A stretch of 62,952 nt of DNA, filler included, from Kipferlia bialata (Eukaryota), in NCBI GenBank assembly GCA_003568945.1. It is 4 parts of 4 records of this genome, joined end to end, with 100 filler letters (N's around TTAATTAATTAA, not from the genome) between each part and the next. Parts side by side here need not be neighbours in the genome. Positions count along the whole stretch, not along the records: positions 1 to 25,131 come from BDIP01000212.1; 3 more parts are not named here. One strand, written 5' to 3'. Positions 56-46,488 of the stretch are shown here, in pieces. Numbering within the stretch: the stretch's first letter is position 1; each line of letters starts with the position of its first letter. The position numbers and the translations under genes are program-made. The notes below the pieces were generated by a model that saw only the letters and a program-made list of their open reading frames with translations, had not been told where the DNA came from and ran no database searches.

Positions 56-3000
56 TGGGGTGAGAAGAATACTCACAGATACAAATACCATGTACACATA
101 TGTTATATACATACACCCACCTAGTGAGGGGTATGCACTCTTAGGTATGCATAGTATTCACGCAGATAGTACATTATACACACATATATATTCATATACA
201 CATCAAGTATATACCTAGCGATGGGTATGCACTCTTGGGTGCAGGGGCAGCAGGGGACCCAGGGGTGGAGGCACTGGGAGTAAGGTATATATTAATTATG
301 ATATCTAGTAAAGATATGAATGTGAATATAATCACTGAACACCATAGTAAAGATGGCAGCATTGTGTATATGGTCTACCTGGGTGTGGGGAATGCCATGA
401 CTGACTGCTTCTGTCTGCCATAGGTGTGTCTGGGGGTGAGATGAAAACTACCATATAGAGAATAGTGATCGATCCATGTCCATAGTCTACATACATATAT
501 ATATTCATAAACATACCTAGGCGGCAGCTGCGGGGCCTTGAAGGGTGTGAATGTGCATGCATGGAGGGTGTGCATGGCGTTGTAGGAGTCCCTCACACCG
601 TGGATGTTGGGGATGTTGAGGTGGAAGACCTGAAGTAAGAGGTGTATTGACACAACAATACCAATAACAACATACTGGATGCTGAAGTGCTGAAGATACA
701 CCCTCAGTGGTTTCGAAGAGTACAATACTCTTGCCCGTGATACATATATATACTCTTGCTTGTACCTTGACGTTTGGGTATGCACCGGCGCTCTCCTTGC
801 CCTTGCCCATGATCTGGCATTAAGGGTGTAGGGGGGGAGAACAACTAGAGGATACATATAGTGGATATATATACTCCATGGAAGCCCAATCGTGTTCCGT
901 CATCACATACATTGATGAGTGTAAATACATCTATGCGGATCCTATATACACTACCTGGTTGGCCTGGTCATCATATACATTAGTGTATATTAAGAATATG
1001 GTATATAGATGTATATTACATATATGGGATTCTAATAATTACCTGGTTAGCCACAGCATTGACCCATGCCCTTGCGTCAAAGATGACCACCCGGGGGGAC
1101 TCGGGGGGGACACGCCGGATGGCCTGACAATGAGAGGAGGAGACTATATAAAAGAAACTATGGGACACATATGATGACCTGTTTGTAAGAGACATGTAAT
1201 AGTATATACAATACCTCAACAAGTGCCTCGTCCTCGATGGACCTGCTCTTGAACCCGGCACAGGGCTGGCTGCATCTGGGTATAAGACTCAATATATGTA
1301 TAAATATATATATACATTCATACTTATGCATATACACACACATATGTATACACACTCATGTACCTGCATATGCTGATGCCTGTGAGGGGTGACCTCCAGC
1401 ACAGGGTGGGGATGCGTCCACTGGACCTGGGAGTAAGTACACATACTCTAAATTATTATGTGCAGACATGACAGCAGAGAATATTCATACCATATTATAT
1501 ATACATAGAGTGTACCTGAACTTAGCACTAGCCATCAGCGTAGTATCACTGATGCCCTCTGGCACTGCCATGACAGCAGGGTAGGAGGGAGACAGCTCAT
1601 AGGCCACGTTGACATAGGAGATCCTCCAGCCCTGGGGTTATATATATCCATATATATAATACAAAAGAACATATACTAGGCATTGGTATTAGCTCATAGG
1701 CCACGTTGGCATAGGAGATCCTCCAGCCCTGGGGTTATAGAATATAGAAGTATATCGTTCTATTCCATACCTCTCCGCTGAGGTGTGGGGGTGGTGTGGG
1801 GGGAGTCAGACTGGGCGGGAGGGGCTCGGGTCTGAGGTTAAGACAACTATATACTCATCATTACAAACGCAGGGTAGTGACCTATACCTGTTAGTGGTGA
1901 ATGACCTGATGTGTCTCAGTACAAGTATATAGATAATTATTATAACATATATAGTAGGTACCTGTTAGTGGTGTAGGGCTTAAGGTGTGTCATGCTGTCA
2001 AACACAGACATCTCACGGTGGAAGGGTGCCTGGGGGGTTAGGATTGTAACCAATAACATCAAAAAAACATGCCATAGAACCAGTAATATATAAAATCCTA
2101 TACATAAATATATATAGATTTACATATATGTATATACAACAGTATAACTATATGTATACCTTTGGGTTGAGGCCTGCCAGTCCAAATGCCTTCTTCCTCA
2201 TGGTCTGGCTCCGCTTGGTGGCAAGGGGCTCCTGGGTATCAGGAATAGTGTAAGTGATTAACTGTATACAAAGGAAGACACATACATAGAACATTGGTAT
2301 GTGACTGCGCATACCTAGATAGATAGATACATGTGAGTATGTATAAACACACATATATATATGTATGAGAGCATACTGGACCATGCGCATACCTGTGAGT
2401 ATGGAGGTGGAGGCATGTACACCACGCCCTGTCTCCTGAACTCCTTGATGGGGTCAAAGTGCATCCAGCCACGGGTTGCCCTATTGTTAGAGTTAATAAC
2501 ACACACACATATATATATAGTATACATGATACACAATATATGATTGTGTATAATGATACTTGATGGGGTCAAAGTGCTCTGGAGGCCCTAGCATTAGAAT
2601 GTATAGTATACACAATTGATTATACATGACTGTATATACAACGATACTTGATGGGGTCAAAGTGCATCCAGCCCCGGGTTGCTCTGAAATGAGTCTGCAT
2701 GATATATACATTAACATACATATATCATTATACTAAGAATGATATGTCTGGATAGAGAATCCATACCTCAGCACCGCTGGGTATCTCTGGAACACATCGT
2801 TGATGGAGGTGGGTTGGTTGGCAGTGATCCTGGTATCAGCATAAACAGTAATAGATGAATACTGCCATATACTGTACAAGCATACATAGCGGGCTGGTTG
2901 GCAGTGATCCTGGTATGAACAGTACAAATGAGGAAAGAATTATGAACAAGTCATGCATTAATGGTATTGGTGAAGGCTAACTGGTGTAAAGAGATATACT

Positions 3001-5194
3001 GGTCAAAATGTACAATTCGCAGAATTACAACACATTCATATGCATACCTGCCGTGCATTGGGTTTGGTGCCTTTGACCTCCCGTACATCTGCTTGGACAC
3101 GGCATCGACACCCTGGTATGAGATACAGGTAGAATATGAATGGAACACAACATATAATATAATTACACATTTGTTTGCACACAGCATCGAAACCCACAGG
3201 TGAGGACAAATATCCAATAAGACTACATCACCAGAGTATATGAGTTTGCATGCAATATTGGATACTTTCACCAACAAGAGGTAGGAGTATAATGTCTCCT
3301 GACTATCTCTATGAATGGTTGTAGATGTATGAGGATGATGTATGCAGAACAGTGTTACCAAACTGCACCGACAGGGGGTGGAGGTCTATGTCGTCATCGT
3401 GTATCAGTATCAGTATCGTACACAGTATATATTAATACCTGCACCGACAGTGGGTTGAGGTCTATGTCGTCATCGTGTATGAGTATCAGTATCGTACACA
3501 GTATCAGTATCCTACACAGTATATATGGGTACCTGCACCGACAGAGGGTTGAGGTCTATGTCGTCATCGTGTATAAGAGTGAAGCCACTCTGCACACCCT
3601 GGTCAGACTCAGACTCAATGTCACCTGGGTTAATAATTAAGTATATAGAACACATAAAGAAATATATATATAGGTATATATATTATAACACAAAATAGTA
3701 AGTACTCTGCACACCCTGGTCAGACTCAGACTCAATGTCACCTATGGGTAAGAGGGACACTATACACATCAGCCAAAGTACTTGTGAAAACACACACATG
3801 AATACTGTGTATGAAACATCTATGTGTGTCACCTGTCCTCTGCGGGTGGCGTATGATATATATATCAAACACAAATACAATTTACAAAAATGTCATATTC
3901 AATACTATGTCTCACCTGTCTCCTCTGCGGGTGGTGCCTGGGAGTTGATACAGGCCTGGGTGTGAGAGACATGATACACATCACAATGATTCAGACACTA
4001 ACATGTATACATACATCAGCATATACCTGCTTGAGAACTGTCTCAAAGTGGCATATGTAATATATATAATACACTGGTGTATATATATGTACTCATATAC
4101 ATATATACCTGCTTGAGCACTGTCTCGAAGTGGTGCTGCAGGGCAAAGCAGGACTCCCTCAGCTGAAGGGCATCGCACTCGGCCTGGTTTAGCATAATAT
4201 CATTGGGTACTACAAACAAACGCATAAACAGGAAATAAATAGTTACACATATATATCCTCAACTGAAGGGCATCGCACTCGGCCTGAGAGTGAGGAAGCG
4301 TACATAGAGGTAAATAATATTCAAAAATTATGAATATATATATATATATATATCAGTACATACCTCGAGGTGCTTGGCCACCACCCTCCTGGCCGGGGTG
4401 TTGGGGTCAAAGCCTGGGGGGTAAGACAGCCTATACAACAACATAGTGTAGTGCGTACACAAGAAACTATAGAGGTACATGATACTACACACCTAGCTTG
4501 ATGACCAGTGCTGTGATGAGCTCCACCTCCAGTAGGTATAGAGTGTAGATACACTATACACATATAAAACATAGTACACTGAAGATACCTAGCTTGATGA
4601 CCAGTGCTGTGATGAGCTCCACCTCCAGCAGGTATGGACCAGTGGCAGAGCGGCCCTTGCCACCAACCTGGGGGTAAGACAGTACAAAGGAATCAGAGTG
4701 GTAATACTACATATCACATACATAGAGCATGTGCTGATATGAATATACATATATGGAATATACCTTTGTGACCCTGACAATCTGGCCAATGGGCACAGCC
4801 AGCAGAGGCTGTCTGACAGAGTGGGTGTCGGAGTCAGTAAGGAGCAGTCTAAAGGTTAGCGATAATGGAGAGAGAGAGAGGGAGAGAGAGAGAGGGAGAG
4901 AGAGAGGGAGAGAGAATTGTCCGACAGAGTGGGTGTCAGAGTCAGTCAGAAGGAGCCTAGTGTAAAGGTAAATACGGGAGAGAGAGAGAGAGAGAGAGAT
5001 GTCACAGAGTGGAGAGCAGTCTAACGGTTGGAGAAGAAGAGAAGGGTGGGGGGTGATATATACAACTTCAGAAGAGTGTCAGAATCAGGTAGAAAGAGCT
5101 TGCATTTAGCATATACGTAACATACACTCACCTGTAGTTTGTGATTGTGAGTGTCCCAGTCACGTCACAGTTGTCGTTGCCACCATAGACAGGC
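52..5194 (-). CDS. Myotubularin-related phosphoinositide phosphatase (multi-exon, partial at both ends)
   Basis: Spliced exons give a GRAM-like GTLTITNYRLLL, then GWRISYVNVAYELSPSYPAVMAVP..ISD..L..SAKFRSSGRIPTLCW, CSQPCAG..SRSIEDE, IFDARAWVNAVAN and LNIPNIHGVRDSY, all hallmark myotubularin motifs. The catalytic HCSDGWDRT motif was not seen in the window. Confidence 0.9.
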
Positions 5195-5300: not shown

Positions 5301-5345
5301 ATCTCTCTCTATACATATGTATCTATACCCCACCCCTTACCCCAG

Positions 5346-5519
5346 GCCCGCCTTGAGAGTGAGAGGCAAGAGGTGCTGGCAGAGACACAGAGGAGAGAGA
5401 GGGTGGCCACAGCAGCAGCTGCTGACCGGAGGTAAAGAGTATATATATATATATATACATATGCATGATGTATCCCTCACCCCAGGGCCGTTGTGCACAT
5501 GAGACAGGCCAACAGTGTA

Positions 5520-5555
<36 letters not shown>

Positions 5556-7968
5556 TATATATATATATATACATATGCATGTATCCTCACCCCAGGGCCG
5601 TTGTGCACATGAGACAGGCCGAGAGGGAGAGGGAGGGAGAGGCACATGGGGTGAGAGAGAGGGAGAGAGAGACTGCCGACCCTGTCCTCGAGGCAGAGAG
5701 GGCCAAGGAGGCAGAGAGGCAGAGGCGGGTGCGGTATCTGCAGAGGAATGATAGGAAGAAGGTAGATGAACACACATATTTACGTGTTATACTATAGTAT
5801 AGTGATGAAATTTGCACATCCACTCGTTTGTGGTATCTGCAGAGGAACGAGAGGAAGAAGTTACTGTCCAGGATATAGTATAGTATTGTATAGTACATTT
5901 TTTACTTGTGTGTGTACACTCTATGCCATCTGACCACTAGGTGCAGCGCAGGGCAGCGACAGCCAAGGCCAGGGGCAGGACTAGGGGGAAGGTGGGAGAT
6001 TACATATGAATAGTATGGGGTATTAATGAATACTATATATCTAACCCCAGCCCCGCCCTGCCTGGGCCCGTATATACATGAGTAATATATGTATATATAT
6101 ATACTCTATGTACTTGTCTCTAACCCCTAGTCCAGACCTGCCTGGGCCCGTACCGAGGAGGGCAACTATGTATATACTATATATCATCACGCTATATATG
6201 TCTCTAACCCCAGCCCCGCCCTGCCTGGGCCCGTACCGAGCAGGGCAACAGGGCAGCAGAGGAGGATGCCGTGGATCAGCTGCTGGCATTTGCAGATGGG
6301 TGCGTCTCTCTCTGTCTGTCTCTCCTTTTCTCTCTCTATGTATGTTTTCCACTGACCCCTAGTCTCCCAGTGATGATAGTACTATACAGCTACAATGGTA
6401 CTATTCTCTCTGTATATACCTCTCACCCTCCAGTCTCCCCAGTGATGACGAGGCCACTGCCGCAGCCCCAGGCGATGATACCAAGGTCAGTACACGCGCA
6501 TCTTTCTGTATGCATACATGTATACATGCTAGTCCCATTCTCCTCATGGGTGAACTAGTATTGTCTATAGAGAATTCGTTCAGCGTCTAGAGTTATATAA
6601 TCATCTTCTCTGTATCTCTACTATCTCCTCACCCCAGACCCCTGATGCCATGGGTGAGCTTGTCCAGGAGCTGCTGGGCGACACATCCCTGGTGGATGCA
6701 TTGACTAGGGCAAAGGTAGATAGTAAACACACATACACACATATAGATATACATATGTGTGTGTATGGATATATATATGGTGTGCGTATACTGTTGGGTG
6801 ACACATCCCTGGTGGATGCACTCACAAGGGCTAAGGTGTGATATGGAATACTCTTTGGAATACCATTTCAAATGATTATATGTGTGTATTCTTATGCTAC
6901 GAGAACTTGTGAGTTATCTTACTCTCCCTTACCCTCAGGAGCGTCTGGACCGTATAGTGGCACTGGCCAGGGTCAAGTATGAGGTATGGCGTATGGTGTA
7001 TATTAATATACATATATATAGTGTATTGTACTCTACTTTGTGACCTACTAGGGCAACCTTTTTGCCGATCCATCAGTTTGTATACTGCTATACGGTTACT
7101 TATTGCGATGATACCCTCCATATACACACCCTATGCACTAAATGTGTATGTAGTCTCTATAGAATACATATATGTTTGTATTCTCCCGTGTCTAACCCCT
7201 AGGGCCAGGGCAACCTGGGTGCCAATCCCTTTGAGGAGGGTGCAGAGGGAGAGAGAGAGGGAGAGGGAGAGGGAGAGGGCAAGGACATCTATGACACACA
7301 CGAGGTGTTCAAGTTCAAGGATGGGTCATCACTCCTGCGCTACTTGATGCAGGTATAGTAGTCAATGCGTATGTATATATGTGTGTATATCCTGTTACGC
7401 TGCCCTCCAGCCCAGCAGCTCCACCTCTCCATATTGTTATGTAACATATGTATAAGTATACATATATATCATCCCCTCTCACCCCCTAGCAGCTCCCCGG
7501 CCACTCCGAGCAGTCCCTCCCTCTCTCTCTATATATATGTAGTATATATATGTATAGTAAATGTCATCTTTGCTGACCCCCCAGCAGCTCCCCGGCCACT
7601 CCGAGCAGTCTCTCCGGGCCATGATAGCCAAGGAGAGACAGGAGGAGAAGGAGAGAGAGAAGGAGAGAGAGAGAGAGGCAGAGAGACAGCGCGAGATTGC
7701 CGCCATCCTCGCCAAGGACAAGGAGAGTAAGAGAGAGGGAGAGAAGGGTGCAGAGGGTGCTATGCCGCATATCGATGCCCCCATGGCCATGGATGCAGTG
7801 GGGAAGAGGATACCCCACCCTACTAGGACAGAGACAGGGGGGAGACGCATACCAGAGGGCGAGGTCTTCTGTGTGCCCCCCGCAGACCCAGAGGATGTTC
7901 CCACACACACGCGCAAGGAGGTCAATGTACACACACTGCCATACAGGTTCAGAAACGCAGCTCTCTAG
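5346..7968 (+). CDS. Hypothetical charged/coiled-coil protein (multi-exon, 5' partial)
   Basis: GT-AG exon chain in frame (ARLESERQEV..., AVVHMRQAERERE..., DAVDQLLAFAD, MGELVQELLGDTSLVDALTRAK), with a last exon 7586-7968 ending RFRNAAL-stop. No family recognised. Confidence 0.65.
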
Positions 7969-8429
7969 ACACTGTGGGCACTGTAGGCACATTAGGGTGT
8001 GTGGCTATATTGTAGTCTGGTGTTTGTTTGTATGTATATGGGGCTCTTCTGTACCCTCCCTTTGTTTTATGGAGGGTGACGTCCCATATGCACTACTTAC
8101 AATGGTGGTATTCGGTTAGGGTGTCTTTTGTGTTGTTGTTGTTCTGTAGTTTATGTTGTGTGGTCTAGATGGTTCTCTATACCATGCTGTAGCACTCTTT
8201 GTATTTGGTGGATAGATGTCTCGGTTGGGGTCATAAATCGAGAGTGATACAGTAATCAACTTGCTCCACAGTATCTTCAGAAGAGACTCCTCCACAATGA
8301 TCTAACAGAAAGACTCTCTCCCTCTCTCTATTGGTTAGCCTCCTCCTCCCTAGCGTCCTGTGCCACCAATAATACTAGGCCCAGTAACAATATGCACACC
8401 AACCCTCTCTCTATACTAGGCCTAGTTGT

Positions 8430-9574
8430 CTATTGCTTGGCCTCCTCCTCCCTAGCGTCCTGTGCCACAATCTCCATGGCAGCACGCAGTATAACACCAG
8501 CCTCCTTGAGAGGGGCAACGCCTAGGGTGGTACCTGTCGTTAGTATATACTAGGCCTAGTAGTATACAGTACAGACAGATAAAGAGAGAGAGAGAGAGGA
8601 TAACCCCTGCCTCCTTGAGGGGGGCAACGCCTAGGGTAGTACCTATAGTTAGTATGTATGGATTTATACAATGGACACCACTGTATATTCAATGGACACA
8701 CTACCTAGCAGCTCCACTATCCCCGTGTCCCCCAATGACACTATGTCCACAGGTGATATACACTATACACTATATATATATGTATATAGTGCACTATACC
8801 TAATAGCTCCACTATCCCTGTATCTCCTAGTGACACTATGTCCACTGGTGATATACACTATACACTAAACACTCTATATATATACAATGCACTATACCTA
8901 GCAGCTCCACTATCCCTGTATCTCCTAGTGACACTATGTCCACAGGTGATATACACTATACACTAAATACTCTCTNNNNNNNNNNNNNNNNNNNNNNNNN
9001 NNNNNNNNNNNNNNNNNNNNNNNNNNNNNNNNNNNNNNNNNNNNCTATACCTAACAGCTCCACTATCCCCGTGTCTCCTAGTGACACTATGTCCACAGGA
9101 GTCCTGATGCCACCCCGCCTAAGGGCACGGGCACGGCCTGGGTAAGGGGTGTGTAGACATTCTATGTATACTATACACTACATTAATAAACTACAAACTA
9201 TATACTACACTATATGATGCATGATGCCATCCTCCTTAGAGAACGGGCACGTCCTAAGGAGTTAGCCAAGAGTATACTAAGTATTATATACACATATACT
9301 ATGTGGAGGGAATGGGCACGGCCTAGAATGAGTATGTCATAATACATATACCATATATCAGGTGGTGCACTTGCATGCATACCTGGCCCCTCTCCCTTAT
9401 TGGGTGGAATACATACACAGTACATGCAAAAGTAACACAATACACTACTATGTATACTACAATACAAAAGTAACACAATATACTACTATGTATACTACAA
9501 TACAACCATACCTGGCCCCACCCCCCTTATCCTCAGCAGGGACAGGATGTCTGGCAGGGTGCCCTCCTACGGGT

Positions 9575-9611
<37 letters not shown>

Positions 9612-12600
9612 ACGGCAATGCGTAGGGTACCCTCCTGAGGTGGGCAGAGAGAAGGGAGATAGTACATACATATACAGATACCCATCGGTAGTACCTGGAT
9701 TCTCCTTGTCATCATCTCAAACAGTGCCTGGAGCTGCCAGTGCCTGGGGTTAGGACAGAGATACACTCATGCATATGTATATGAATACATATACATATAC
9801 CATATACATAATATAGGGGAATGTATACTGCAAGGAAGGGCCTGGAGCTGCCAGTGCCTAGGGTTAGGTACATAGACATACATATATACTATATACACAT
9901 CTTGTATTTACAATACTTGTACCAAGACTCCTGTTTGAACTCACCTCAGTTCCTCCGCGAGTCTGCTGCAGGTTGCCACTCCCTTGCCCACAGACAGCTT
10001 GAGACGCTGCAGGTCACCAAACCTAGTGGTTAGAGGGAGAGAGAGAGAGAGAGGGGGAGAGGGCAGGAGAGCGAGGATGGGTCTGAGACACGGGAGGGTA
10101 ACCTATATACACACACAACTATATATATATAGAGAAACACTCACTATATCCTGAATGTGTTACAGGTGACTGCATCTGGTGTATAATATAAGCATTAGAA
10201 TATACACGTATTAAAATACTATCAGTATATTCCAATATATACTCTACATACTTGATTTTGAACGTGTTACAAGTCAGTGCATCCGGCGTCTCCCTCAGGA
10301 CAGATGCCATGACCAGTGCATTCCACTATATATATACATATATATATATATATACTAATAATACTCACTTAATACGGAACGTGTTGCATGTGACTGCATC
10401 TGGTGTCTCTCTGAGTACAGATGCCATAACTAAGGCATTCCACACCAGCCACAGACCAGACTCCATGGCATCGTCAGTGATATAGGAGTGCCTGAAGTTA
10501 AGGGGGTAGAGAGAGAGAGAGAGAGAGCCACAGACCAGACTCCATGGCATCATCAGTGATGTAGGAGTGTCTGGTAGTTAGATACATATATGTATACATA
10601 GAGAGAGAGAGACAGAGAGGGGTGGGGGGGATAGACTCCATGGCATCGTCAGTGATGTAGGAGTGCCTGGTAATAAGGGTGTAGATGAAGAGAGAGAGAG
10701 AGAGCCACAGACCAGACTCCATGGCATCGTCAGTGATATAGGAGTGCCTGGTAATAAGGGTGTAGATGAAGAGAGAGAGAGAGAGAGAGCCACAGACCAG
10801 ACTCCATGGCATCATCAGTGATATAGGAGTGTCTGGGTGTTAAGGGTGTAGAGAGAGAGAGAGAGAGAGACCAGACTCCATGGCATCGTCAGTGATGTAG
10901 GAGTGCCTGGAAGTTAGATACCTATATATAGACATAGAGAGAGAGAGAAAGAGAGGGAGGGGGTGGGGGGGATAGACTCCATGGCATCGTCAGTGATGTA
11001 GGAGTGTCTGATAATAAGGGTGTAGATGGAGAGAGAGAGAGAGAGATCAGACATAACATAATCTCTTCTATTTAGATTTGCAGCAGCCTGTCCTCACACC
11101 AGTATTCAAACACGTATGTGTAAATACTTGTGCGGTAATCAGCTGAACGTGCACCGCATTTAGTCATATGTATATAAATCGACCATGAAACTATGATTAT
11201 ACATTATCCTATGGAACACCTCTCGGTACCTGAACTTGTACCGTATATAGGCATCTGCTATACAAATCGTACAGTATATACAGTATGGGAGTAAACGTTT
11301 GAATATGCATCGATATATCACTGTCATTGTATACACACAACTCCTAACCTGAACTTGCACCGCATGTAGTCTACATACACTGATATGTACACATATATAT
11401 ATGACATACACATATATACGTAGGCGTGTCGTTATTGCAATATTACTTCCCCCCTATACCTGAACTTGCACCGCATGTAGTCATCTGTGACACCCAGGGC
11501 AGTGAAGATGGCCATTAACTCTAGGATAAGTACTATAGAGGGGGAGTGGGTATTATATATATATGTATATATATTCTTATATGGCATGTGTGACACCCAG
11601 GGCAGTGAAGATGGACATGAGCTCTAGGATAAGCAGTAGGAAGAGTGTGTATCTAATATGTAGAGGGTATGTGAAGGTATATATATATATATCAATAGAA
11701 AATGTGACGCCCAGGGCAGTGAAGATGGCCATGAGCTCTAGGGTGAGCGATATATATATTCAGAATTTCCCAATAGTAATAAGGCACGTTCATGTTTCTA
11801 CCTTTGCCACTTTGTCCAGCAACCTCTCCACTATCAGCACTTACAAATATATATAAATATATATATTTATACAGTGTATGTACACTATAACCACAACTCA
11901 TACCTTTGCCACTTTGCCCCTTGTCTAGCATCCTCTCCACTATCTGCATGTCAGGTCTGAGAAGACCATCTCCACTCACGTCCCTGTCACCGTCCTTCCT
12001 GACAGTTAGTACTATGTACTTATACATACATTACATTACACGATATAAATCCATGTACTCGGTTTTCATCAGGTTACATAGAATAGCTATAGTGAAAGAA
12101 TATAGATATACAGTGAGATCAGAAGGTTATTTCCATTCACATTCATCCTCACAAGACATGACATGATACTATACTACATGTAAAGGGTATCACATATATA
12201 CATTATGGTATAGTGTCACACTCTACCTCCTGACTATGGGCATGCCAAGGGCTAGTACATGGACATCACTCCCACACAGGATGCCTAAGGTTAGATATAG
12301 AGACAAGAGAAAGTGTATATATATAGCGAGAGTTACTATGCCATATATATGGGATGCCTATGGTTTGATAGTACTGAGGGCGGTGTGCATATACCAGGGT
12401 AGAATGTTGTATACGACAATGCAATCAACATAGACCCATGCACACAACCTTCCAATAGACAAATATGTGATTCATAGATATACAAATATGAATAACAACA
12501 TAACAGCTGACAGTGCCCTAGAGAACATGTCCATATAGTATATTCCATCTCTATCTCTCTATATAGGATACCTGTCTATATAGAGAGCACCCTATATACA

Positions 12601-27756: not shown

Positions 27757-30700
27757 ATGTCCCTGGACTCCAACCCTCTCTTCAAATACAGGGTGGCGTC
27801 TAGGTGGATAGATAACCCAAGGTACGCGTGTGGTGTGGTGTGTGTATGTGTATTATCCCTAGTGGCACATATTCCTAGGCTCAGAGAAATCCCACTCTAT
27901 TTTTGGTTTATCATGTATACACGCCCCATACCGACCCTGGCTATGCTCTCTTTCTCTCTCTCTCTTATACACTTACCCCATAGGCTATGTCGTAGTGTTG
28001 AGTCCACATCTGCCCCCCAGGCCATACCCAGGTTCACCTCTACATGTTCAATCACCTACACTATGTACCTAACAATCACCGATGCATTCCTATAGACCCC
28101 ACTTGTATGTGTATGTATATGCCAGACACCTTCACTGCCCGTGTGTGCTGCCCTCCCCCTGAATCATATCCAGATATGTACTCATATATACTTATGCTCT
28201 TCAATCACCTACACTGTGTTCTCTTCTATTCTGATACCAACCAGCACACCAGACGATACCCATATATGTACCCTATAGTACATCGCCTACCCCCCCCTTA
28301 CCTGACCCCAGGGCAAGACCGATACACACTTATATGTATTAACTATCTCAGGTATTAATATCGTCCTTGTTCACCACCTTCCCATGTGTATCTGACCCCA
28401 GGCTGTCTGCCCCCAGGGCTAGACTGGGGCCACCCCCACTGGACGCAAGGTATGTGTGTGTGTATATGCCAGCTGATAATGCCTTTATCCCTGATGATAT
28501 ACCCCCACTGGAGTCAAGGTATGTATATGCAAGTGGAACCTATATACCCCTGCTATAGGGCCCCCCTAACCCACCAGACTGCCTTGGGACAGAGTGTGTG
28601 CAGTATCAGTACATATATTACACCTCTCACTGGCAGACTACCTGGTGAGACTGACTGTGTGCAGGCCATAGCGCAGGGACACATGGCGCCCACCCCTCTA
28701 CTACCACCGGCACTGCTCACGGCACAGGTATATGTATATGATATATACTATATATATACTATATATATATATTGAGTATGCAGTGAATGTAGTGTACCCA
28801 CACCCTTACTACCACCGGCACTGCTCACAGCACAGGTATATACTTATACACACACATATATATGTATACTATATATATACTATATGACTATGTGGAGTAT
28901 ATAGTATAACCACACCCTTACTACCACCGGCACTGCTCACAGCACAGGTGTGTGTGTATGTATATAAGGATCAATCTTTGGGATATGTTGTGTCTAGTGT
29001 ACCCACTCTGGCCTACCCATTTCCTATTTGTATCCTAACCCCGAGGACGCCCCTGCCAGGGTATGAGTATATATGTATCTGTACGATTATATTATATATA
29101 TCATTTATATACATGTATATACATGCTAACCCCCAGGACGCCCCTGCCAGGGGAAAGGGTGCACGGCAGGTGGTAGTGGGGGCTAGCAGGTACATATATA
29201 ACAGCGGTGTATATATATATGAATATATATATATCTCAATATCACTATTAGTGTATATGCAGGTGGTGGTGGGGGCTAGTTGGTTCTGGGTTCTGGTACA
29301 TATATATGTGTGTGGGAATGCATATGTAGGTCGGGGGATAGGGCTAGTAGGTACAGGGCTAGGAGTATATACATCTGGCGCTTGTGAGGTACCTGTCATT
29401 GGTATCATGTCTCACCCATAGGAACTTGAAGGCATTTAGAAAGGCCGCTTTGGCCGAGCATCCACTTACGGATTGGCAGGTGGGGGATCAGTGGCAGTCA
29501 CTTCTCTCTGTGGATGTGAACCGTAGTTCTCTCTGTCTCTATGGATAGCATCCTTACCCTTCAGTCCATCGAGCACCTGAACCCCAGTCCCCGTCTCCAT
29601 CTCCATCTCTCTCTCTATTCTATACATATTCTAACTCTAGTCTCTCTCACCATATATATATAGATGTGTGTGTGTGTATATATGTTTATATATATCTACG
29701 GATAACATACTTACCCCCAGTCCATCTAGCACATGAACCTCCGACCAGCTCTCTCTCTTTTCTCTATACTCTACATATTCTCACCCTTCAGTCTATCGAG
29801 CATCTGAACCTGAGTCACCAGGACCTGGGCGATGCATACCAGGCCACATACCTGCAGCACATACTAGGTGGGTATATAGTGTATATATGTGACGGTGAGA
29901 GATAAAGAATCGTTTATGGGCTACTGCACCGGTATGTCTAGTATATGTATATATATGTATGCATGTGTGTCTGACCCCAGGTGTGCAGTGCCAGCCCAAG
30001 ACGGCACCCCAGCTACTCAGCATAGACCTAGGGCATAACAGGTGGGATGTGTATGTGTGTATATATGCAGAGTATAACATGTACCAAGGATAGGCTCTGT
30101 GTCCAAGATAGTATGTTTGTATTCCACTACAGTATATATATATCGATACAATATTTATGCATGGTAATGACTTGAGACTATTCGCCCTAATCTCAGGATT
30201 GAGTCTCTGTCCAACATGTATCTGCCCCACATCCAGAAGCTGTACATGCAGGGTGGGTATATCCTATATTACGTATATATCATATATAGTGTACATGTAT
30301 AAATATACATATATACTTGTATCTGCCCCACATCCAGAAGCTGTACATACAGGGTGGGTGCACATGGATACAATAGTATGTATATTTGTAAATATAGTTA
30401 TGTGTGTGTGATTGAATGTCTAGTCCTTCTCTCTCACTCCCTCACTCTCTCTCACTCACTCCCGATATATATGTATCCCAACCCAGGCAAAAACAGACTT
30501 GAGTCTTTCTCTCTGCTCCTCTCTCTCTGTATATCAGTACATGCATATATATATATACTTACCCCTTAGGCAACAGCCTCGAGTCCTTCAAGGCCCTGCC
30601 CCTCTGTCCCAGACTGGAGGTGCTTTCCATAGACAGTAACCAGGTACATAGTAGTATATTCTGTATATACTCTTACCACACATATTCTTCATCCAGACAG

Positions 30701-31508
30701 ACAGCTTCCAGGGAAATACTTCGTATAGGGTGACAGAGGGAGTATATGTACCCCGATCTCTCTCTCCCTTGTCTCTTACCCCTAGATAGAGACCCTGCAG
30801 GGTCTAGAGCGCTTCCCCCTCCTCAGAGTGCTGAGTGTCAGGGACAACCCAGTGGCCACATCTTTCAGATTCCTAGAGAGGTATGCATTATGCATTCATA
30901 TTTGTATGGGTGTGGGTGTGTGTGTTGATAACAGTCATATATATATATATATTTATATGGGTGTGATTATATGTGCGTGTATCCATATCCTCACCCCATT
31001 GGTGTGTCGTGATGTGTCCTGTCCTTGCATGCATTTGTATATAAATATTTATATATGAATGCAAATATATGTGTATTAGAGAGGTATCAACCTATATTAA
31101 CCCCAGGTGTGTAGTGATGTGCCCTGTCCTTGATGTATGCAATGGCATACCCTGTCAGGCACTGCAGCAGGCAGCAAATGCACACGCCATACTCAGGAAA
31201 CTCAACCCTAGGTATACAGTTTATAGTGTATAGTATATAGTATATGTATAATGTGCGTGTTGGTCTCTCACCCTAGACGCCTTGCCTCCCGCATGGCCCA
31301 GATGAGTTTGACCAACAAGGACCTGTTGACCGAGGAAGACATAGGGAAGGAGGGGAAGAGTAAGAGGAGAGGGAGGGGGAGAGAGGCTGATATTGAGAGG
31401 GGTGAGGGTACCAGACACGTCCAGATTGATAATAGGGAGGTGGATGTAGGGGAGAGAGCGGGGGAGAGAGAGAGAGGAGGGGAGGGTGGAGACTGGGGGG
31501 AAGGGTGA
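27757..31508 (+). CDS. Leucine-rich-repeat protein (multi-exon)
   Basis: LRR units IEHLNLSHQDL, LLSIDLGHNR, LPLCPRLEVLSIDSNQIETLQGLERFPLLRVLSVRDNPV. The last exon ends at TGA 31506-31508; the 5' exons are uncertain. Confidence 0.65.
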
Positions 31509-31830: not shown

Positions 31831-33764
31831 TTACCAGGCCTCAATCACAACGAGGCCCTTGTCGCACAGCTCGTCGTACCTCTTCTGGGCACCGTCTGCT
31901 GTGAGGCCTCCTGCTGTCACCATGGAGTCCTTGATGATGGAGACAATGTCCTCGGGAGTGCGGCCGGCAGGGCCACAGTAGCCGAAGAACCCGTCGACGG
32001 CACCGAGGCTGTTCCAGACCCTCTCCGGGTTCTCCCTCATCCTGTGGGTCACGTACACCTTCTTGGCCTGCTCCCTCGAGAAGGCAGTCACGTAGTCGCA
32101 CAGACCCATCTTCTCCCACTTCTCAAACTCGTCGATGCAGAGGGCGTCCTCGTTCCTGCGCCTGCAGCCAAAGTAGATGGTGCACTTGCCCTGCATGATG
32201 CCTCTGTTGTACAGGGCCTCGCGGTGCTGCATGAAGGAGCGGAAGGGGGCAATGCCGGAGCCAAGGCCCACGCAGGTGATGGGGACCATGGGATCCGAGG
32301 GGGGCTGGAGGGGGGAGGACTTGATCTGGACAGCCACCATGGGGTTCTCAAAGACGTTGAGGTCCTTGAGGTACCGGGTGCACTGGCCGTACCTCATGGT
32401 GCCCTTGGCTGTCTTCCAGTCAACGATGCCGATGACGAGCTGGATCTGCTCGGGGTGCATCATGTGGCTGGAGGCAATGGAGTAGAGACGGGGGTTGTTG
32501 CCGGGGATCATCTCGATCAGGTAGTCCAGAGAGACAGACACAGACTTGAACATGTCAAACACCTCGTGGTAGCGCACAGACTCGGCCACAAACTGCTCGG
32601 CAAACTCGTCCTTGCCCTCCTTGGCGGTCAGGTGCAGCAGCCTCTCCCTCTCGGACCTGTCGGTAGTGAAGGGGATCAGCGACTTGAGGAAGGACTTGGT
32701 GATGGGGCCGCAGACGTCCAGGTAGAGGCCGAACACCTCACGGACAGTCAGGGAACGGGACAGGCCGGGGGGGACCTCGGTGTCGCCGTTGCCGCGGACA
32801 GTGATGACCATCTCGGGGTCGATGGAGAGCCTCTTGCAGAGGGTGTCCACGACATCGGTGGGAGCCCTGGCCAGAATGGAGATGTGGAAGCCAGTCTCGT
32901 AGGTGAGGGTGGTGTTCTCAAGCTCGAAGTGGAACTTGTAGGCGTCCCTGGGCACTCCGTTGGGGGTGATCTTCTCGGAGTGGGAGAGCCTGACGTACTG
33001 GAACTTGGGAGGGGGGGGAGGGGGCATCTGCATGGAGGCAGTACGCACACAGGTGAACTTGGGCTCGGGGATCTGGCAGCCACCGGCGTCAGCGGCACCG
33101 AGGGCGTCCCAGAGCTGCTCCATCCAGGGGCCGAGGGCGCCCTCGTACTTCTCGGGGTGGAGCTCGTCTCCCATGCCGAGGGGCACGAGGGACTTGGCGC
33201 CGAGGGCCTTCATCCTGTCGTCGACCTCAATAGCAGCCTGGCAGAACATGGGGTAGGAGGAGGAACCAATGCCAAAGACACCCACGCGGGTGTTCTCAAA
33301 GAGGTTCTCGGCGTGGTCGGAGGACTCGAGCCACTCCCAGAAGTTGGCTGCGTTGTCGGGGTGCTCACCCATGCCGAAGGTGGAGGTGACGTAGACCAGG
33401 AGGCCGGACTTGATGAGGGTCTCGGGGTTGATCTTCTCGATCGGCTTGAGGGTCACGGCAAACTCGACGTCCTTGTTCTTGGCCTCGGAGGCAATGCGCT
33501 TGGCAATCTCCTTGGAGTTACCGGTCTGGGTGGCGTACACGATGGTCAGGGGGGTGCCCTCGACGTTGGTGGAGGGGGAGTCGTCCTCCTCGTCCTCAGT
33601 GGGCCTGAACACAATGCCGGACCTGTCGGAGTAGTGGGTGTGGAGCAGCTCGTGGGACTTGTGGGACAGGGGCTTCTCGAGGAACTCCTTGTAGAGCTGG
33701 GCAATGTCGGGGTTCTCGTGAGACCTCCTGGGGGGTGAGAATGGAGAGAGAGCGGGGGACACAT

Positions 33765-33795
<31 letters not shown>

Positions 33796-34582
33796 CCTGA
33801 GAGTGGACCTCTCGTCGATGTTGTAGATGGCCTCAGTCCTCTTCTGGAGGATGTTGGGGTTGAGGGAGCGGGGCTGTCCGCCTCCTCCGATGCAGCCACC
33901 GGGGCAGGCCATGACCTCGACAAAGTGGTACTCCTTCTCGCCGGCCCTGATGCCGTCGAGCAGCTTCTGGGCGTACTTGATGCCAGAGGCAACGGCGATG
34001 CGGAGGGTCTTCTTCTCACCGGTGGGGAGGGGAACCTCAACCATGGCCTCCTGGATGTCAGTGTCAGAATCTATACATATGGATATACTCATATATACAT
34101 TTGTGTATCAGTATGCATACCTTGATGCCGTCAAAGCCACGCACGGGGGCGTAGTTGAGGACGGGGAGGGGGGTGCCAGAGGCCAGCTCGTAGGCAGTGC
34201 GCAGGGCGGCCTCCATAACACCTCCAGTGGCACCGAAGATGATGGCGGCACCTGGGGGTGAGGGGAGAGAGGGGGGGGGGGGGTATGTATCATATATATA
34301 TATATACTAGTATATGTACACACCTGTGCCGGATCCGAGGGGGCAGTCGAACTTGGACTCGGGCAGCTGGTTGAACACAATGTGGTGCTTACGCACGAGC
34401 TTTCCGAGCTCGCGGGTGGTGATCACTGCGTCGATGTCGGCGACACCGTCGGTGGAGAGCTGGGCACGGGCGATCTCCTGCTTCTTGGCGGTACAGGGCA
34501 TCACGGAGCAGGAGAAGATCTGGGAGGGGGCGACGCCGAGCTTCTTGGCGTAGTAGGACTTGATGAGAGCTCCCATCATTCC
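31831..34582 (-). CDS. hydA: [FeFe]-hydrogenase fused to flavodoxin + FAD/NAD(P)H (CPR/CysJ-like diflavin reductase) domains; 5' partial
   Basis: Exons 34324-34582, 34121-34251, 33797-34050, 31831-33727. H-cluster motifs SVMPCTAKKQE and EVMACPGGCIGGGGQP, IFGATGGVMEAALRT, small-subunit RRSHENP..SHELLHTHY; FMN motifs YATQTGNS and TSTFGMGEHPDNA; FAD motif RLYSIASS; NAD(P) motifs GLGSGIAPF, YFGCR, AFSR..KVYV; terminal Trp. Confidence 0.95.
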
Positions 34583-34864
34583 CTGGTGTAAGTGAGAGAG
34601 AGATAATGGGGGGGGGGGGGACGGGAGGGGGGGGGGGGGGGGGGGAGGGGGGGAGGTGGGGGGGGGGGGGGGGGGGGGGGGGGAGATATACATATCACCA
34701 TATATGTAGGGGAGGGGGTATGTGACATCCATACTCACTTTGCCCTGTAGTACCCTGCCTCCATCAGCACTAACACATACTTGTATCAAATATATACCAT
34801 GTACATGCACTCTTATATACATAGATACATACAGTATATATTCATATATAGTATATACACTCAC

Positions 34865-35569
34865 TTTGCCCTGTAGTACCCTGCCTCCATCAGCACCTCC
34901 ACAATGCGGTCATAGGCTGCAGCCTGGAGAGTTAGGTATATAGCCAAGAGATAGCAAGATCCATATATAGTGTGCGGTCACAGGCTGCAGCCTAAAGAGT
35001 TAGATATATAACCAAGAGATAGAAATATCCATATAGGGTAGTGTGCGGACATATGCTGCGGCCTGTGGGGTGAGTCAGGGAGTAATACACAGTTATGTAA
35101 CTAAGCGCAGAGTATGTATATAGCGATGTATACCTCTCTGGAGTCGAAGCAGTCCCTGCCTCTCCGGTCAGGACGGTCAGTCAGGTCAAACCCTGGGGTG
35201 AAGGGAAGGTGTATGATAGTGGTGTGTGAAAGGAGCGGGGTTGGGGGAGGGGGGGGGGGTAACTACAACACGTCCAATCATAGTCAATGATACAACTGCA
35301 ACATACGGAATAGAATGGGACATAAAACAAAACACATACATGAACAACACTCCCACGGGATAACCACCTTAACACTTAATTGTGAGTAACGAGTGTGTAT
35401 GCACTGACCATAATCAACCAAAACGAGGTACCCACTCGTGAAGTGAAGGAATACACTATATACCCAGTTACTCATACAGTAGAGTGGAAGCATACACATC
35501 TAACACACTCTAACACACACTCTAACACACACATACACACTATGTACCTGGTGGGAGGGGTCGGGGCAT
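34865..35569 (-). CDS. CCDC93: CCDC93-like protein N-terminus (3 exons, 3' partial)
   Basis: Spliced MPRPLPPG|FDLTDRPDRRGRDCFDSRE|AAAYDRIVEVLMEAGYYRAK resembles the conserved CCDC93 motif ILELLVAAGYFRAR (recalled, not searched). Confidence 0.6.
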
Positions 35570-37609: not shown

Positions 37610-37784
37610 GTGCTATCAATGCTTGAAGAGGAAGGGAGAGCCTAAATCACTAAAACTGGCACAATAACGTAAATCATTAAAGTAGGCTTCGGAGATTCTC
37701 CTGAATTGCCGACAATTTGCCGGTTCTGCATTCGGAAAATATCTTGAAACTTGGAAAGCATGTTCTCTTTGTCGTTGATAGAAT
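37610..37784. promoter_or_regulatory. Short bidirectional promoter (V-ATPase G / importin alpha)
   Basis: 175 nt between divergent ATGs; contains CGGAGATTCT (37690) and CGACAATTTG (37710), both also found upstream of RPS6/RPAC2. Confidence 0.5.
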
Positions 37785-39085: not shown

Positions 39086-39247
39086 GTATGCACTATTGTA
39101 TATATATATAAGTACACACACACATATATATATATATATATTGACACTTGAATGAATATCATGTCCAACCTGGTCAGGTACTTAATGTATATATATATAT
39201 ATATTAGAAGCCCCCCCACCCCCCCCTGCACAAGTCCCTATATCTCT

Positions 39248-39347
39248 NNNNNNNNNNNNNNNNNNNNNNNNNNNNNNNNNNNNNNNNNNNNTTAATTAAT
39301 TAANNNNNNNNNNNNNNNNNNNNNNNNNNNNNNNNNNNNNNNNNNNN
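39248..39347. other. Artificial contig linker (44N-TTAATTAATTAA-44N)
   Basis: Same 100-nt structure as at 25132. Confidence 0.95.
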
Positions 39348-41015: not shown

Positions 41016-43800
41016 CCTCTGCTAGATCCAGGACCCCAGACACGACAGAGTGCAGGTAGGGGTGGGTCTCCCTGGGGGGTCAGAATGAAAGGTGGGAGAG
41101 TAAGAGAGATGAACTGGTGTCAGACAGCGGGATAGAGGGAGAGAGGGAGAGAGACACAGTAACCTACCTTGCTGTCAAGGGGCTAGTCCCCAGCGTGACC
41201 ATGGCTGTGTGGATCTCCTGGGGGTCAGAAGCAGAGTATATATGCACATATGCATTACAATGTCTATGTACCTGTGACAGTGCAGGCAGCTCTGTGTTGG
41301 AGTGCCTGTCCAGACCGGCATGGACAGCGGAGGAGAGCAGGAGTCTGGAGAGTGAGACAGAGGGAGAGAGAGAGGGGGGGGGGGGAATACTTCCGTTGCC
41401 AGCATTGTGTGTGTCACCTCCTAAATATATAGTATATAGTTACAGTTATACATGCAAAACATGTACATTCATATGTAGTAGTATACACAATGAGCACACT
41501 ATACTATGTATACCTCATTGCCAGCATTGTGTGTGTCACCTCCCACAGGGGAAGGGGGTCGCCATGGCTGACAGAAGAGGCATGGCCTGAGATGAGTATA
41601 TACAGTGTATAAGTGTATATATACACACACATATATATAGCATATATATAATTACATATAGCCATGGCTGACAGACGACGCTTGGTCTAGGTATTAGATT
41701 AGGCAATACACATTTGTATATACATGGGTATACAAAGATATCTGTGTGTCAGTGACAATGCGTGTCAATAAATCACCATCTACTCATGAATACCTGCCAG
41801 CAGTCTTGTGCACACCCTCACACCCACAGCCCTCTCCACACACGTCATGCCTGGGGGTTAGTCTTCGTATAACTATACTGCTACTCACTTATCATGTCAC
41901 ATATCCCGGATAGATGTTTATAGATACCGACATATCAACCTCCATACTTCCGTAAATATTGTTCAGTATAAGTACTAACTCCGCCTAAGTAAGCCGCTGC
42001 TATCAGGCAACAGAGGAACACACACACACGTATACACACTCACATATATATGTATACACTGACTATACACAGTGTTCATACCTACTCCTCCCAAGTATGC
42101 CGCTGCCACAAGGTACTCCACCCCACTCATATATACACATGCATATATATATATATACTATATATATATTATACACACTGTTACTACCTGCCCCTCCCAA
42201 GTATGCCGCTGCCACCAGGTACTCCACCCCACTCTCACTGACAGAGGCAGAGGCAGAGGCCTTACCCCTGTATGCAGAGGTTGATAGTGCATTAGCCCTA
42301 TCTACTAGATCAGTCACAACGGATGGGGAGGGAGGATGCTCGGCATAGGGGTTCACTGGAGGCACTGGGGTAGTACTTGAGTCTCTTGTGTTCCTTGTGG
42401 TGCCCGAGGGGGAGAGAGAGAGGGCGAGGGAGAGGGCCGACTCCTCTGCCACCTGGGGTGAGTGGGTACTTTTGTGCATAGAGTCATATACACTAATACA
42501 TACATATACATTCATATATATATATATATACATATGGCCGACTCCTCTGCCACCTGGGGTGAGTGTGGCTATACACATCACACTATTGAGAGGATATATA
42601 GTATATATTCGTACCAGGTGACATGCCAGCAATGAATATAGAGACAGCCATATACTCTATTATATACTCTATTGTCATATATAAATATCTAGTATATATT
42701 CGTACCAGGTGACATGCCAGGTGTGCAGTGCACCCCAGCACTAGGGCAGGGGGTAGGGAGGGAGGCAGACGGTGCATATCACCCTTGCTAGTATCTGTCT
42801 CTGTGGCCTGTGTGTACAGGTGCACCAGACACTGCACAGCAGACAGCAGGGAGGCCACCACGGCCCTAGGGTTAGTGTCTGTATGATATTGGTACATATA
42901 TTGATATATAGATATATTGTAATATATCTATATGCACAGCAGACAGCAGGGAGGCCACAACCGCCCTGCAGTAAGTATATATAAGTATATACATTACTAT
43001 TGACGCATAGAGTATATGTATATGTATATATAGCTGTACTAGACACTGCACAGCAGATAGCAAAGAGGAACTACTCTAGGGGGAGTCTATGTATATAGAC
43101 AACAATATACATATAAGAATATGCATATACACAACCTTATATATATACATACCTAGGTGCACAGGGTGCTGTTGATGCAGGGTTGATGCTCGAGAGAGAC
43201 GTGGCGCCAACACTTGGGCCACCAGAGGCTACTGGGGGTTAATATATATATATATATATATAAACATATATATATTAATAATACATATAATATATATATA
43301 TATTTATATACCAGAAGATCTATCAAGACTCCTTGACAGATCTAGGTGAATTCCAGAGGCTACTGGGGGTAAGTCATAAATATATAAGCATATGTATACG
43401 GATATACTTCAAGACTCCTTGACAGATATATATATATATATATATACATATCAGTATATATATATATATATATATACATAAATATATATCAAGACTCCTT
43501 GACAGATGTTTCTCCGGCTATGACTGTGAGAACAGTGATGAACAGTGATATGGAGCTAATCATACACATATGTATACTACACTAAACCTGACACAGTGAG
43601 TACACTTTTGAGTGCCCCTGCCCCGTCTGGGAGGGTGGGGATAAGGAGGGGGACCAGAGAGACAGCGGCATGTCTGGTGGTAAGAGAGCAAGGTTGATAC
43701 TTATATGAATATCCCCTACCTCTCCTCCGGTGTGACCCTTACCCTGCCCAGTCTCTCTATCTCTTTCTCTCTCTCTCTCTCTCCCCCCCTCTCTCTCTGC

Positions 43801-43832
<32 letters not shown>

Positions 43833-44945
43833 GTGAATGTACCTCTCCTCCGGTGTGACCCTTGCCCTGCCCAGTCTCAACAGCTGATAGGACAGGTACA
43901 CGCTGGATATGCCTCTGGAGGTGAGACAGATAATGATACATGTATATCTATGTGAATTCACATAGATATATACATACACTATACTGATAGTCTCAACAGC
44001 TGGTAGGACAGGTACACCAGATATACCCCTGGAGTATGAATGAGAAAAGATATATATACAAAACCATACCTTAGAGCAGGCTTCGATGATACTGCCGCTG
44101 TCCCCAGTCTAGTGAGCAGTGACTGTGGCAGGGCATCCACCACTGATCGGATGTCAGGGGGAGGGGGGTAGGGGACAGAGCCCACAGAGGATGCTACTCT
44201 GGCACAGGCTGACATGAGATAGGGAGAGGCAGAAAGAGAGAGAGAGAGATACTGGAGACAAGAGAGAGGCCAGATGAGACAAGGAGAGAGAGGAGGCAAC
44301 CCTCGGACAGGCGAGGATGAGAGAGACAGAGAGAGAGAGAAAGAGAAAAGTAATACTGTGACAGGCTAGGGTGAGCCTCGTAGTAAGGGAGAGAGAGACA
44401 GGATACATGAGGAGGCTGTATGAGAGGGAGAAAGAGAAATAGAGAGAGCACGACATATATACTGAGGCCAAGAACTGGCTATGAGTATCAGTATATATAT
44501 AGTAATATATAATATATAGATATATAATATATAGATACTGATGAGTGTATGCACCCAGGACTCTGATTATGCTCCAGCAGGGCGTTTGATCATGCAATAT
44601 AACACATATGCATCTATATATGGAGGTATGGGCAAATCACATATATACAAGTACTTGGTACCGGTACCGGTACCGTTTTCCAATATCAGTCAATATCCCT
44701 TATAAACACAAACTAGAACTATTCCAGGACGTATAGTATCCATAGAGAGAGACTAATGCTGTATCGGCATGGTATCACGAGTATATCCCCCATGTCGACC
44801 CTCATACAGACTCGGTACCGATACCAACTGACACCTGGACACATACACACACACTGCTATTACCTGTCAGGAAACTGGCATCATCCTCCACCCTCGTATG
44901 GGTCCTGCCCAATGCCCTTAGCAGGTTGGCGGCGTCAGCAGGCAT
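41016..44945 (-). CDS. Hypothetical protein (multi-exon; 3' end uncertain)
   Basis: First exon MPADAANLLRALGRTHTRVEDDASFLT, then a GT-AG exon chain (e.g. RGISSVYLSYQLLRLGRARVTPEER, AVVASLLSAVQCLVHLY, VAEESALSL...YLVAAAYLGGA). No family recognised. Confidence 0.55.
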
Positions 44946-45124
44946 ATAGGGGCAGTGTCAGAGACAGTACCACAGTCAGAGCTCGATGACAAAAGGGTTC
45001 GATGAAATTGTTTTTGTCACTCTGGATTTGCGAGTTGACTCTCCCCTTCACACTCCATATATACAAGCGTGCCCGGGGACTCAGCTAGGTTATCTACCTG
45101 ACCTGGTAGGACTCCCACCCGGAG

Positions 45125-45626
45125 ATGACCTCTGTGGTGCTGTCCAAGGCTGCCCTGGCTGTGTTGGAGGAGAGGGCTGCCAGTCAGGACCACCGACACA
45201 GGCAGAGTCTGGTCAAGGAGTGTGTGGGCACACAGGGTATAGGGGCGCAGAGGGTGCTGTCCGATGATGCCCTGGCCAAGCTGCTCAACTGCCCCAAGGC
45301 CACGGTCAACCAATATCTCAAGAGGCTGAGGTAGGGGAACAGTAGTATACACCTACTTATTCTATATATACTCTATCTCTCTCTCAGTCTCTCTCTCTCT
45401 GTATATATTTACATATAGCCCCAGTTCCTGAAGAGGCTGAGGTATGGGCAATAGTAGTTGTACTCCTACTCTCTCTATATATATTGTATCAGTATCAGTA
45501 TATAAAGGGGATGAGGTATGGGTGTGTGTGTTAGTGACCATCCTGATACTGACCCCCCCCCATCCCCTCTCTCTTCCATTCTCTTTGTCTGATGTATGAG
45601 GAGAACCCTTCTCGGATGCCGTTCTG

Positions 45627-45667
<41 letters not shown>

Positions 45668-46447: not shown

Positions 46448-46488
<41 letters not shown>

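What the first reader, a model, noticed from the sequence alone, without database searches (positions are those of the whole stretch)
10141..10442. Intronic half-exon copies diverge synonymously from the live exon
Seen: the tail copy at 10252-10325 (minus strand) reads WNALVMASVLRETPDALTCNTFKIK against the live WNALVMASVLRETPDAVTCNTFRIK. Over 24 codons, 11 differ synonymously and only 2 differ by conservative replacement (V>L, R>K). A second copy (10141-10182) again encodes TPDAVTCNTFRI with different codons. The copies start mid-exon after AT-rich sequence with no acceptor, so they cannot be ordinary alternative exons, and neutral duplicates should not show this synonymous excess. Inference: each copy was coding until recently. 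One model is one-sided recombination in which a divergent allele invades by homology inside the exon and resolves non-homologously in the intron, displacing the old exon end. Another is that the copies are still used as gene-conversion or template-switch cassettes.
Basis: partly seen in the sequence, partly recalled or inferred. Interest (0 to 1): 0.93.

Follow-up and report, generated by a model that had tools for sequence, protein, structure and literature searches.

The report
Introns stacked with other alleles' exon-ends
In the free-living protist Kipferlia, more than half of the exons examined are flanked by half-exon copies stacked in the neighbouring introns that spell almost the same protein with different codons, which likely means they are pieces of other alleles left behind by off-register recombination between very diverse chromosomes.

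Summary
Observation confirmed (11 silent, 2 replacement codons of 24) and far wider than reported. The locus is exon 36 of a Kipferlia bialata POLQ/HELQ-like helicase. In four genes, 48 of 87 exons carry 111 copies: exon heads upstream, tails downstream, none reversed, 97 of 107 keeping AG/GT, spaced about 107 nt. Pooled dN/dS is 0.14. DNA unitigs hold live exons and copies in cis at equal depth; the spliced contig uses live exons only. The intron flank beside a copy is about as unlike the live flank as an unrelated intron, yet keeps splice signals. Layout matches amphioxus 'mirages' and the F7 minisatellite; the scan noted similar arrays on other DNA. New here: density, coding signature, unrelated flanks. 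Toy simulations reject neutral duplication and same-chromosome conversion and fit best copies born by recombination with a homolog about 20% diverged at silent sites, then shuffled by unequal exchange. Against: no second allele in the one DNA run; no second isolate found. Mechanism inferred, about 55%.

The parts
8430..24947 (-). Host gene, 41 exons, 1029-aa POLQ/HELQ-like Ski2 helicase (KIPB_001479); 81 exon-edge copies in its 40 introns
10369..10491 (-). Live exon 36 (123 nt), branch motif and AG upstream, GT donor at 10368
   Evidence: spliced contig at depth 143.5
10252..10325 (-). Tail copy 1 (exon nt 50-123), 11 silent and 2 replacement codons, own GT donor at 10251
10145..10182 (-). Tail copy 2 (exon nt 86-123), 5 silent codons, stop in the split last codon, own GT donor at 10144
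10526..10570 (-). Head copy of exon 36 with acceptor (nearest)
10633..10666 (-). Head copy of exon 36 with acceptor
10703..10747 (-). Head copy of exon 36 with acceptor, identical to the live head
10788..10832 (-). Head copy of exon 36 with acceptor
10868..10906 (-). Head copy of exon 36 with acceptor
10974..11007 (-). Head copy of exon 36 with acceptor (farthest)
11143..11371 (-). Three tail copies of exon 35 in the same intron (two keep GT)
9945..10022 (-). Live exon 37, the acceptor partner of the exon 36 donor
13999..14156 (-). Live exon 27 (14156-14092) and its tail copy (14033-13999; 7 silent, 0 replacement) inside one unbranched DNA unitig
216..5194 (-). Myotubularin-family gene, 13 copies at 9 of 21 exons
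27757..31505 (+). Gene for P0004, 7 copies at 5 of 13 exons
41017..44945 (-). Gene KIPB_001499, 10 copies at 4 of 12 exons

Best explanation
The copies are half-exons with one splice site each, stacked in the introns and left out of the spliced message, and they are likely pieces of other alleles captured by off-register recombination between homologous chromosomes that would differ at about 20% of silent sites. Shown: layout, cis arrangement, coding signature, intact but different splice signals, use of live exons only. Inferred steps: (1) alleles share exons but have unalignable introns, so exchange starts in an exon and ends in an intron without homology (one-sided invasion, or a crossover about 107 nt out of register); this leaves one allele's exon end live and the other's dead beside it, each with its own intron flank. 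(2) Only units that hold one splice site survive; whole-exon or in-exon duplications would break the protein. (3) The splicing machinery takes the sites that bound a complete exon. (4) Unequal exchange between copies and live exons multiplies and shuffles units; deletion removes them after a time equal to roughly 4-9% of their silent divergence, so few replacement changes build up.
For: dN/dS 0.143 over 111 copies, 0.10 after trimming inner ends, in all four genes (0.13-0.22; trimmed 0.04-0.11); transversions at 0-fold sites 50/2469 versus 73/661 at 4-fold sites. Variants private to one copy are third-position rich (28 of 53 trimmed, P=0.003), so the live lineage alone does not explain it. Exon parts 92% alike, donor-side flanks 0.661 versus 0.661 for unrelated introns; 1 of 19 exon-identical pairs has a flank 0.9 alike. 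Copy donors score as live donors (1.55 vs 1.55, random -0.31); 39 of 49 head copies have a branch motif (live 61 of 71, random AG 23 of 383), 24 of 32 with a different motif from the live one; 0 of 49 acceptor strings equal the live one. 33 of 67 within-cluster pairs share inner ends (20% expected); 3 of 4 testable site pairs show four gametes. Toy model with homolog-donor births plus unequal exchange gave pS 0.25, pN 0.043, signal 0.94, shared ends 0.48, flank>=0.9 in 2% (observed 0.23, 0.038, 0.91, 0.49, 1%). No close paralog that could be the donor: each of four protein searches returned one protein. Metamonads lack NHEJ and keep meiotic genes (PMC8516963).
Against: The one DNA run shows no second allele over 9100-16500 (no other letters at >=5% share, >=88% likeness), so hyperdiversity is not seen directly and needs inbreeding or loss of heterozygosity in this culture. 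No other isolate found. Sex has not been observed in metamonads (PMC8516963 section 10). No clear age order: nearest copy less diverged than farthest in 12 of 21 clusters, more in 8. Inner-half excess of replacements is P=0.001 untrimmed but P=0.22 trimmed. The toy model under-predicts exon-identical copies (0.08-0.13 vs 0.20), rests on 3 replicates per setting, hand-picked rates and an assumed 4-fold faster flank. Two of the three four-gamete pairs lie at exon 40, next to an assembly gap. The narrow 107-nt period is not explained by any test.
Confidence: 0.55

Rival explanations
1. Copies are born as ordinary same-chromatid tandem duplications (classic mirages) and are then refreshed by unequal crossing-over with live exons of diverged homologs. 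Still needs a very diverse, recombining population.
For: Sister births plus unequal exchange reach pN/pS 0.09-0.21 and in one setting shared ends 0.49. Some spacers between copies are 85-100% alike and a three-unit block is duplicated at 89.8%. Acceptor-side flanks are slightly above background (0.644 vs 0.590, P=0.003).
Against: All four sister-birth settings gave 29-33% of copies with a flank >=0.9 like the live flank (61-64% of exon-identical ones); observed 1 of 96 and 1 of 19. pS stayed 0.11-0.17 even at theta 0.6. Unequal exchange with no births lets copies erode.
Confidence: 0.25
2. The copies are themselves under selection for protein: as conversion or deletion cassettes that are often brought back into the live position, or through rare splicing that uses them.
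For: Low dN/dS and kept splice signals. In a very large population, recombination of a copy into the live exon could give weak indirect selection (inference). 11 of 51 tail copies have a near-register GT in the live exon and AG before the copy.
Against: Spliced contig at depth 143.5 runs through live exons 37-36-35-34; copies appear only in colinear intron-bearing contigs at depth 4-19. None of those 11 AGs has a branch motif. Copies decay: 7 of 104 gapped, 2 stop-forming changes, 34 of 76 private changes non-synonymous, acceptors weaker than live (3.14 vs 4.6, P=0.02). Variants are silent, so swapping would give little new protein.
Confidence: 0.1
3. Neutral mirages: duplications that drift while only the live exon is constrained, with or without same-chromosome conversion.
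For: Known kind with the same layout (PMC3087553); geometry alone gives the polarity.
Against: Predicts pN/pS of about 0.4-0.9; observed 0.11-0.17, P=2e-22 against the half model; predicts flanks as alike as exon parts.
Confidence: 0.05
4. Assembly artefact: haplotypes or strains laid in tandem.
For: Short-read draft with gaps; species reported as diploid by k-mers (PMC5874029); the link between live exon 36 and copy 1 crosses a TA run that no listed unitig spans; the DNA run may be the source of the window.
Against: One unbranched 3.1-kb unitig (11056-14157, depth 446.5, no differences) holds live exons 27-34 with their copies; the unitig with both focal copies has depth 444.7, as unique DNA nearby (428-459). 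Up to nine copies in one intron cannot be two haplotypes.
Confidence: 0.03

Closest known systems
'Mirages' of amphioxus (Adh3, globins BflGb6/BflGb9, troponin C, PGBD5); PMC3087553 passages, PMC3902484 passage
   Same: Tandem units that span an exon-intron boundary, at either end of an exon, duplicate AG or GT, are of similar size (10-160 bp; 108 bp in PGBD5) and do not disturb splicing.
   Different: There: a few loci, whole units 81-100% alike with concerted evolution; the passages read report no dN/dS. Here: 48 of 87 exons, intron length largely made of units (130 + 100 nt per copy, r=0.88), only the exon part alike, strong silent bias, flanks unrelated yet with working-grade signals.
Human F7 intron 7 37-bp VNTR; PMC1557585 abstract
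   Same: First unit spans the exon-intron boundary; downstream donor copies stay silent; the most upstream donor is used.
   Different: Single locus, identical pseudo-sites, donor side only. Here acceptor copies are also passed over, the last one being used.
One-sided invasion in double-strand-break repair (mechanism from my own knowledge; only a reference line seen in PMC4888836)
   Same: Homology at one end, non-homologous join at the other, donor sequence added beside the recipient's.
   Different: Known from engineered breaks; I found no report of it building introns genome-wide. Not shown here: no donor or fresh junction seen.

Membership tests
Mirage minisatellites | Repeat unit spans an exon-intron boundary | tested here: met
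   107 of 111 copies reach the exon edge on the expected side, 4 internal, 0 reversed
Mirage minisatellites | Splice sites duplicated | tested here: met
   97 of 107 keep AG or GT; signal scores
Mirage minisatellites | Head-to-tail units of minisatellite size | tested here: met
   period median 107 nt, 92 of 100 between 75 and 145
Mirage minisatellites | Whole unit, intron part included, is a repeat of the live junction (81-100% in BflGb6) | tested here: not met
   flanks 0.66/0.64 versus background 0.66/0.59 while exon parts are 0.92 alike; exceptions are some copy-copy spacers
Mirage minisatellites | Normal splicing undisturbed | tested here: met
   dominant contig of run X2 (RNA by guess, but spliced) joins live exons 34-37; contigs drop rare forms, exons 34-37 only
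Mirage minisatellites | Copy number differs between haplotypes or cells | not testable with these tools
   one sample, contigs only; no relative found
One-sided invasion products | Inserted part derives from a homologous donor | tested here: inconclusive
   indirect only: coding signature, unrelated flanks, toy-model fit; no donor allele seen
One-sided invasion products | Non-homologous or microhomology join at the far end | not tested
   inner junctions are too eroded and AT-rich to score without the donor
Mutually exclusive or cassette alternative exons | Copy has both acceptor and donor and appears in mRNA | tested here: not met
   no full-length copy listed for three genes or P0004; not in spliced contigs

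The most novel reading that the evidence does not exclude
Kipferlia introns are largely built, genome-wide, from a running record of mis-resolved recombination: each outcross between highly diverged lineages can displace an exon end into the intron, so one genome archives the exon ends and splice junctions of many other alleles. The copies would give silent diversity (about 0.2) and evidence of sex from a single, locally homozygous isolate of a group in which sex has never been seen.
Probability: 0.4. Interest if true: 0.85.

Novelty: new variant of a known kind. Interest (0 to 1): 0.68.

Why it matters
If right, it names a mechanism of intron growth (about 100 nt per event), explains dead DNA that looks under purifying selection, and turns one assembly into a population sample: silent diversity and cryptic recombination in a free-living metamonad become measurable. 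It also offers many natural tests of how a short-exon spliceosome picks the last acceptor and first donor among strong decoys, and suggests re-testing mirages of amphioxus and sea urchins for the same signature.

Tried and rejected
No whole genome was held, so the test covers four genes of this window, not the genome. No run on record as RNA was listed; X2 is RNA by guess; X1 and X2 are one sample. Metagenome scan with P0001: 185 pattern matches, none a relative. CpG decay as the cause: 31 of 302 differences are CpG transitions; transversions alone show the bias. My first idea, unequal exchange alone refreshing old arrays, failed in simulation: pN/pS 0.35-0.43 or loss of all detectable copies. 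Low diversity with homolog births gave 0.5-0.6. X1 joints were low-complexity matches and were not used. The negative correlation of exon-part and intron-part lengths can come from boundary error and was not used. Dropped before counting: exon 1 and intron 1 of P0003 and exon 13 and intron 12 of P0002 (doubtful models); 4 of 100 pairs with N in a flank. Flank, signal, period and breakpoint tests use three of the four genes. The original mirage paper was not held. Nine paper searches listed nothing on such copies in Kipferlia or on synonymous excess in intronic half-exons; the library lacks most subscription journals and supplements were not read.

Full report
What is there. The finding lies in a 41-exon minus-strand gene (24947-8430) whose product is identical to a protein that a source names KIPB_001479 of Kipferlia bialata; its best solved relatives are POLQ helicase domains (E 7e-60). 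The live exon is exon 36 (10491-10369). Both keep a GT donor. Six head copies with acceptors lie upstream of the same exon.

It is general. A frame-blind nucleotide search of each exon against its two flanking introns found 81 copies in this gene and 111 in four genes, at 48 of 87 exons in 83 introns, against 6 hits in 2182 non-adjacent pairs (two doubtful terminal exons and their introns were dropped). 52 are heads upstream, 55 tails downstream, 4 internal, none reversed; 97 of 107 keep AG or GT. In three genes the exon part has median 35 nt, the period median 107 nt, and intron length follows 130 + 100 nt per copy (r=0.88).

It is in cis. In DNA run X1 one unbranched unitig covers 11056-14157 at depth 446.5 with no differences and holds live exon 27 with its tail copy (7 silent, 0 replacement); the unitig with both focal copies has depth 444.7, like unique DNA (428-459). 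X1 may be the source of the window, and no listed piece spans the TA run between exon 36 and copy 1, so long reads are still wanted. No second allele was seen in 9100-16500, although the species is reported diploid by k-mers (PMC5874029, sections 7 and 11 and passages read; these do not mention such copies).

It is not spliced in. In run X2 (RNA by guess, same sample) one 396-nt contig at depth 143.5 joins live exons 37, 36, 35 and 34; copies occur only in intron-bearing colinear contigs at depth 4-19. Contigs drop rare forms, so minor use is not excluded.

The coding signature is robust. Pooled: 210 silent differences on 923 sites, 111 replacement on 2939, dN/dS 0.143; 0.10 after trimming inner ends; P=2e-22 against a live exon changing only silently beside a neutral copy; transversions at 0-fold sites run at 0.18 of those at 4-fold sites. 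Variants private to a copy are still third-position rich (28 of 53; 42 silent of 76 untrimmed). Copies also decay (gaps in 7 of 104; 2 stops).

The flanks are the key. Exon parts average 92% identity, but the 30 intron bases beside a copy's splice site match the live flank at 0.661 (background 0.661) on the donor side and 0.644 (background 0.590) on the acceptor side; even among 19 exon-identical pairs only one reaches 0.9. Yet copy donors score like live donors, 39 of 49 head copies have a branch motif, and 24 of 32 use a different motif from the live junction; acceptors are somewhat weaker than live ones (P=0.02). Junctions that have diverged while keeping their signals look like working junctions of other alleles (inference).

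Mechanism. Toy forward simulations (my own; one run per setting, three; hand-set rates) gave pN/pS 0.39-0.87 for same-chromosome conversion or sister exchange, 0.35-0.43 or total erosion for unequal exchange alone, 0.64 for plain duplication with loss, and 0.5-0.6 when diversity was low. Sister duplication plus unequal exchange among diverse homologs reaches the ratio but leaves about 30% of copies with the live flank. Births from a diverged homolog plus modest unequal exchange matched most statistics together, while under-predicting exon-identical copies. Shared inner ends (33 of 67 pairs), four-gamete pairs (3 of 4, two beside a gap) and a three-unit block duplication show secondary shuffling. 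Simple arithmetic puts allelic silent divergence near 0.2 and time dead at 4-9% of the divergence. One-sided invasion and an off-register crossover give the same local product and cannot be separated here. Metamonads lack NHEJ, keep meiotic genes, and have not been seen to have sex (PMC8516963, passages and section 10). The 75-145-nt window of periods may reflect splice competition below and the next splice site above; this is untested.

Comparison. The layout is that of amphioxus mirages (PMC3087553 passages; PMC3902484 passage) and the F7 intron 7 VNTR (PMC1557585 abstract); the original mirage paper was not available. It meets the layout criteria but not whole-unit similarity, so I file it as a mirage-like variant. 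PMC2812944 was seen in outline only, PMC4888836 as one reference line. Earlier scan notes describe similar arrays in other genomes; I did not check their data. Nine searches listed no report of this in Kipferlia.

Verdict. Real, pervasive in this window, a new variant of a known kind. Best mechanism 0.55; about 0.8 that the copies' sequence was recently live on a diverged homolog by one route or the other. Interest 0.68.

Noticed in passing
window 25132-25231, 39248-39347, 55155-55254: N-flanked spacers show that the window is four contigs joined end to end; neighbours across them are not real neighbours.
   Followed up: yes
window 8325-8375 (minus): A tail copy of the last exon including its stop codon lies in the 3' UTR, so the copying is not tied to splice sites alone.
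   Followed up: partly
window 10447-10704 versus 10788-11045: Higher-order duplication of three head units with their spacers, 89.8% alike.
   Followed up: partly
window 31831-35200 (minus): [FeFe]-hydrogenase fused to flavodoxin, FAD- and NAD-binding domains; its 3' 2.3 kb is nearly intron-free and shows no copies.
   Followed up: partly
window 52000-62952: No short-range direct repeats listed here, in a more GC-rich stretch with ribosomal protein S6; copy density varies between genes or regions.
   Followed up: no
window 8430-24947: The host protein is POLQ-helicase-like with no polymerase-length tail (1029 aa); POLQ versus HELQ was not resolved, and any link to the copying is probably coincidence.
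   Followed up: partly
window 5481-5610: The annotated first exon of the myotubularin model maps equally to two repeats that look like head copies of the opposite-strand gene; probably a mis-annotation.
   Followed up: partly
window 45000-51700 (plus) and 5340-7970 (plus): Further genes with dense head and tail copies for which no protein model was fetched.
   Followed up: no
window 37782-39200 (plus): Importin-alpha-like gene start (IBB domain) with few copies, cut by a contig end.
   Followed up: no
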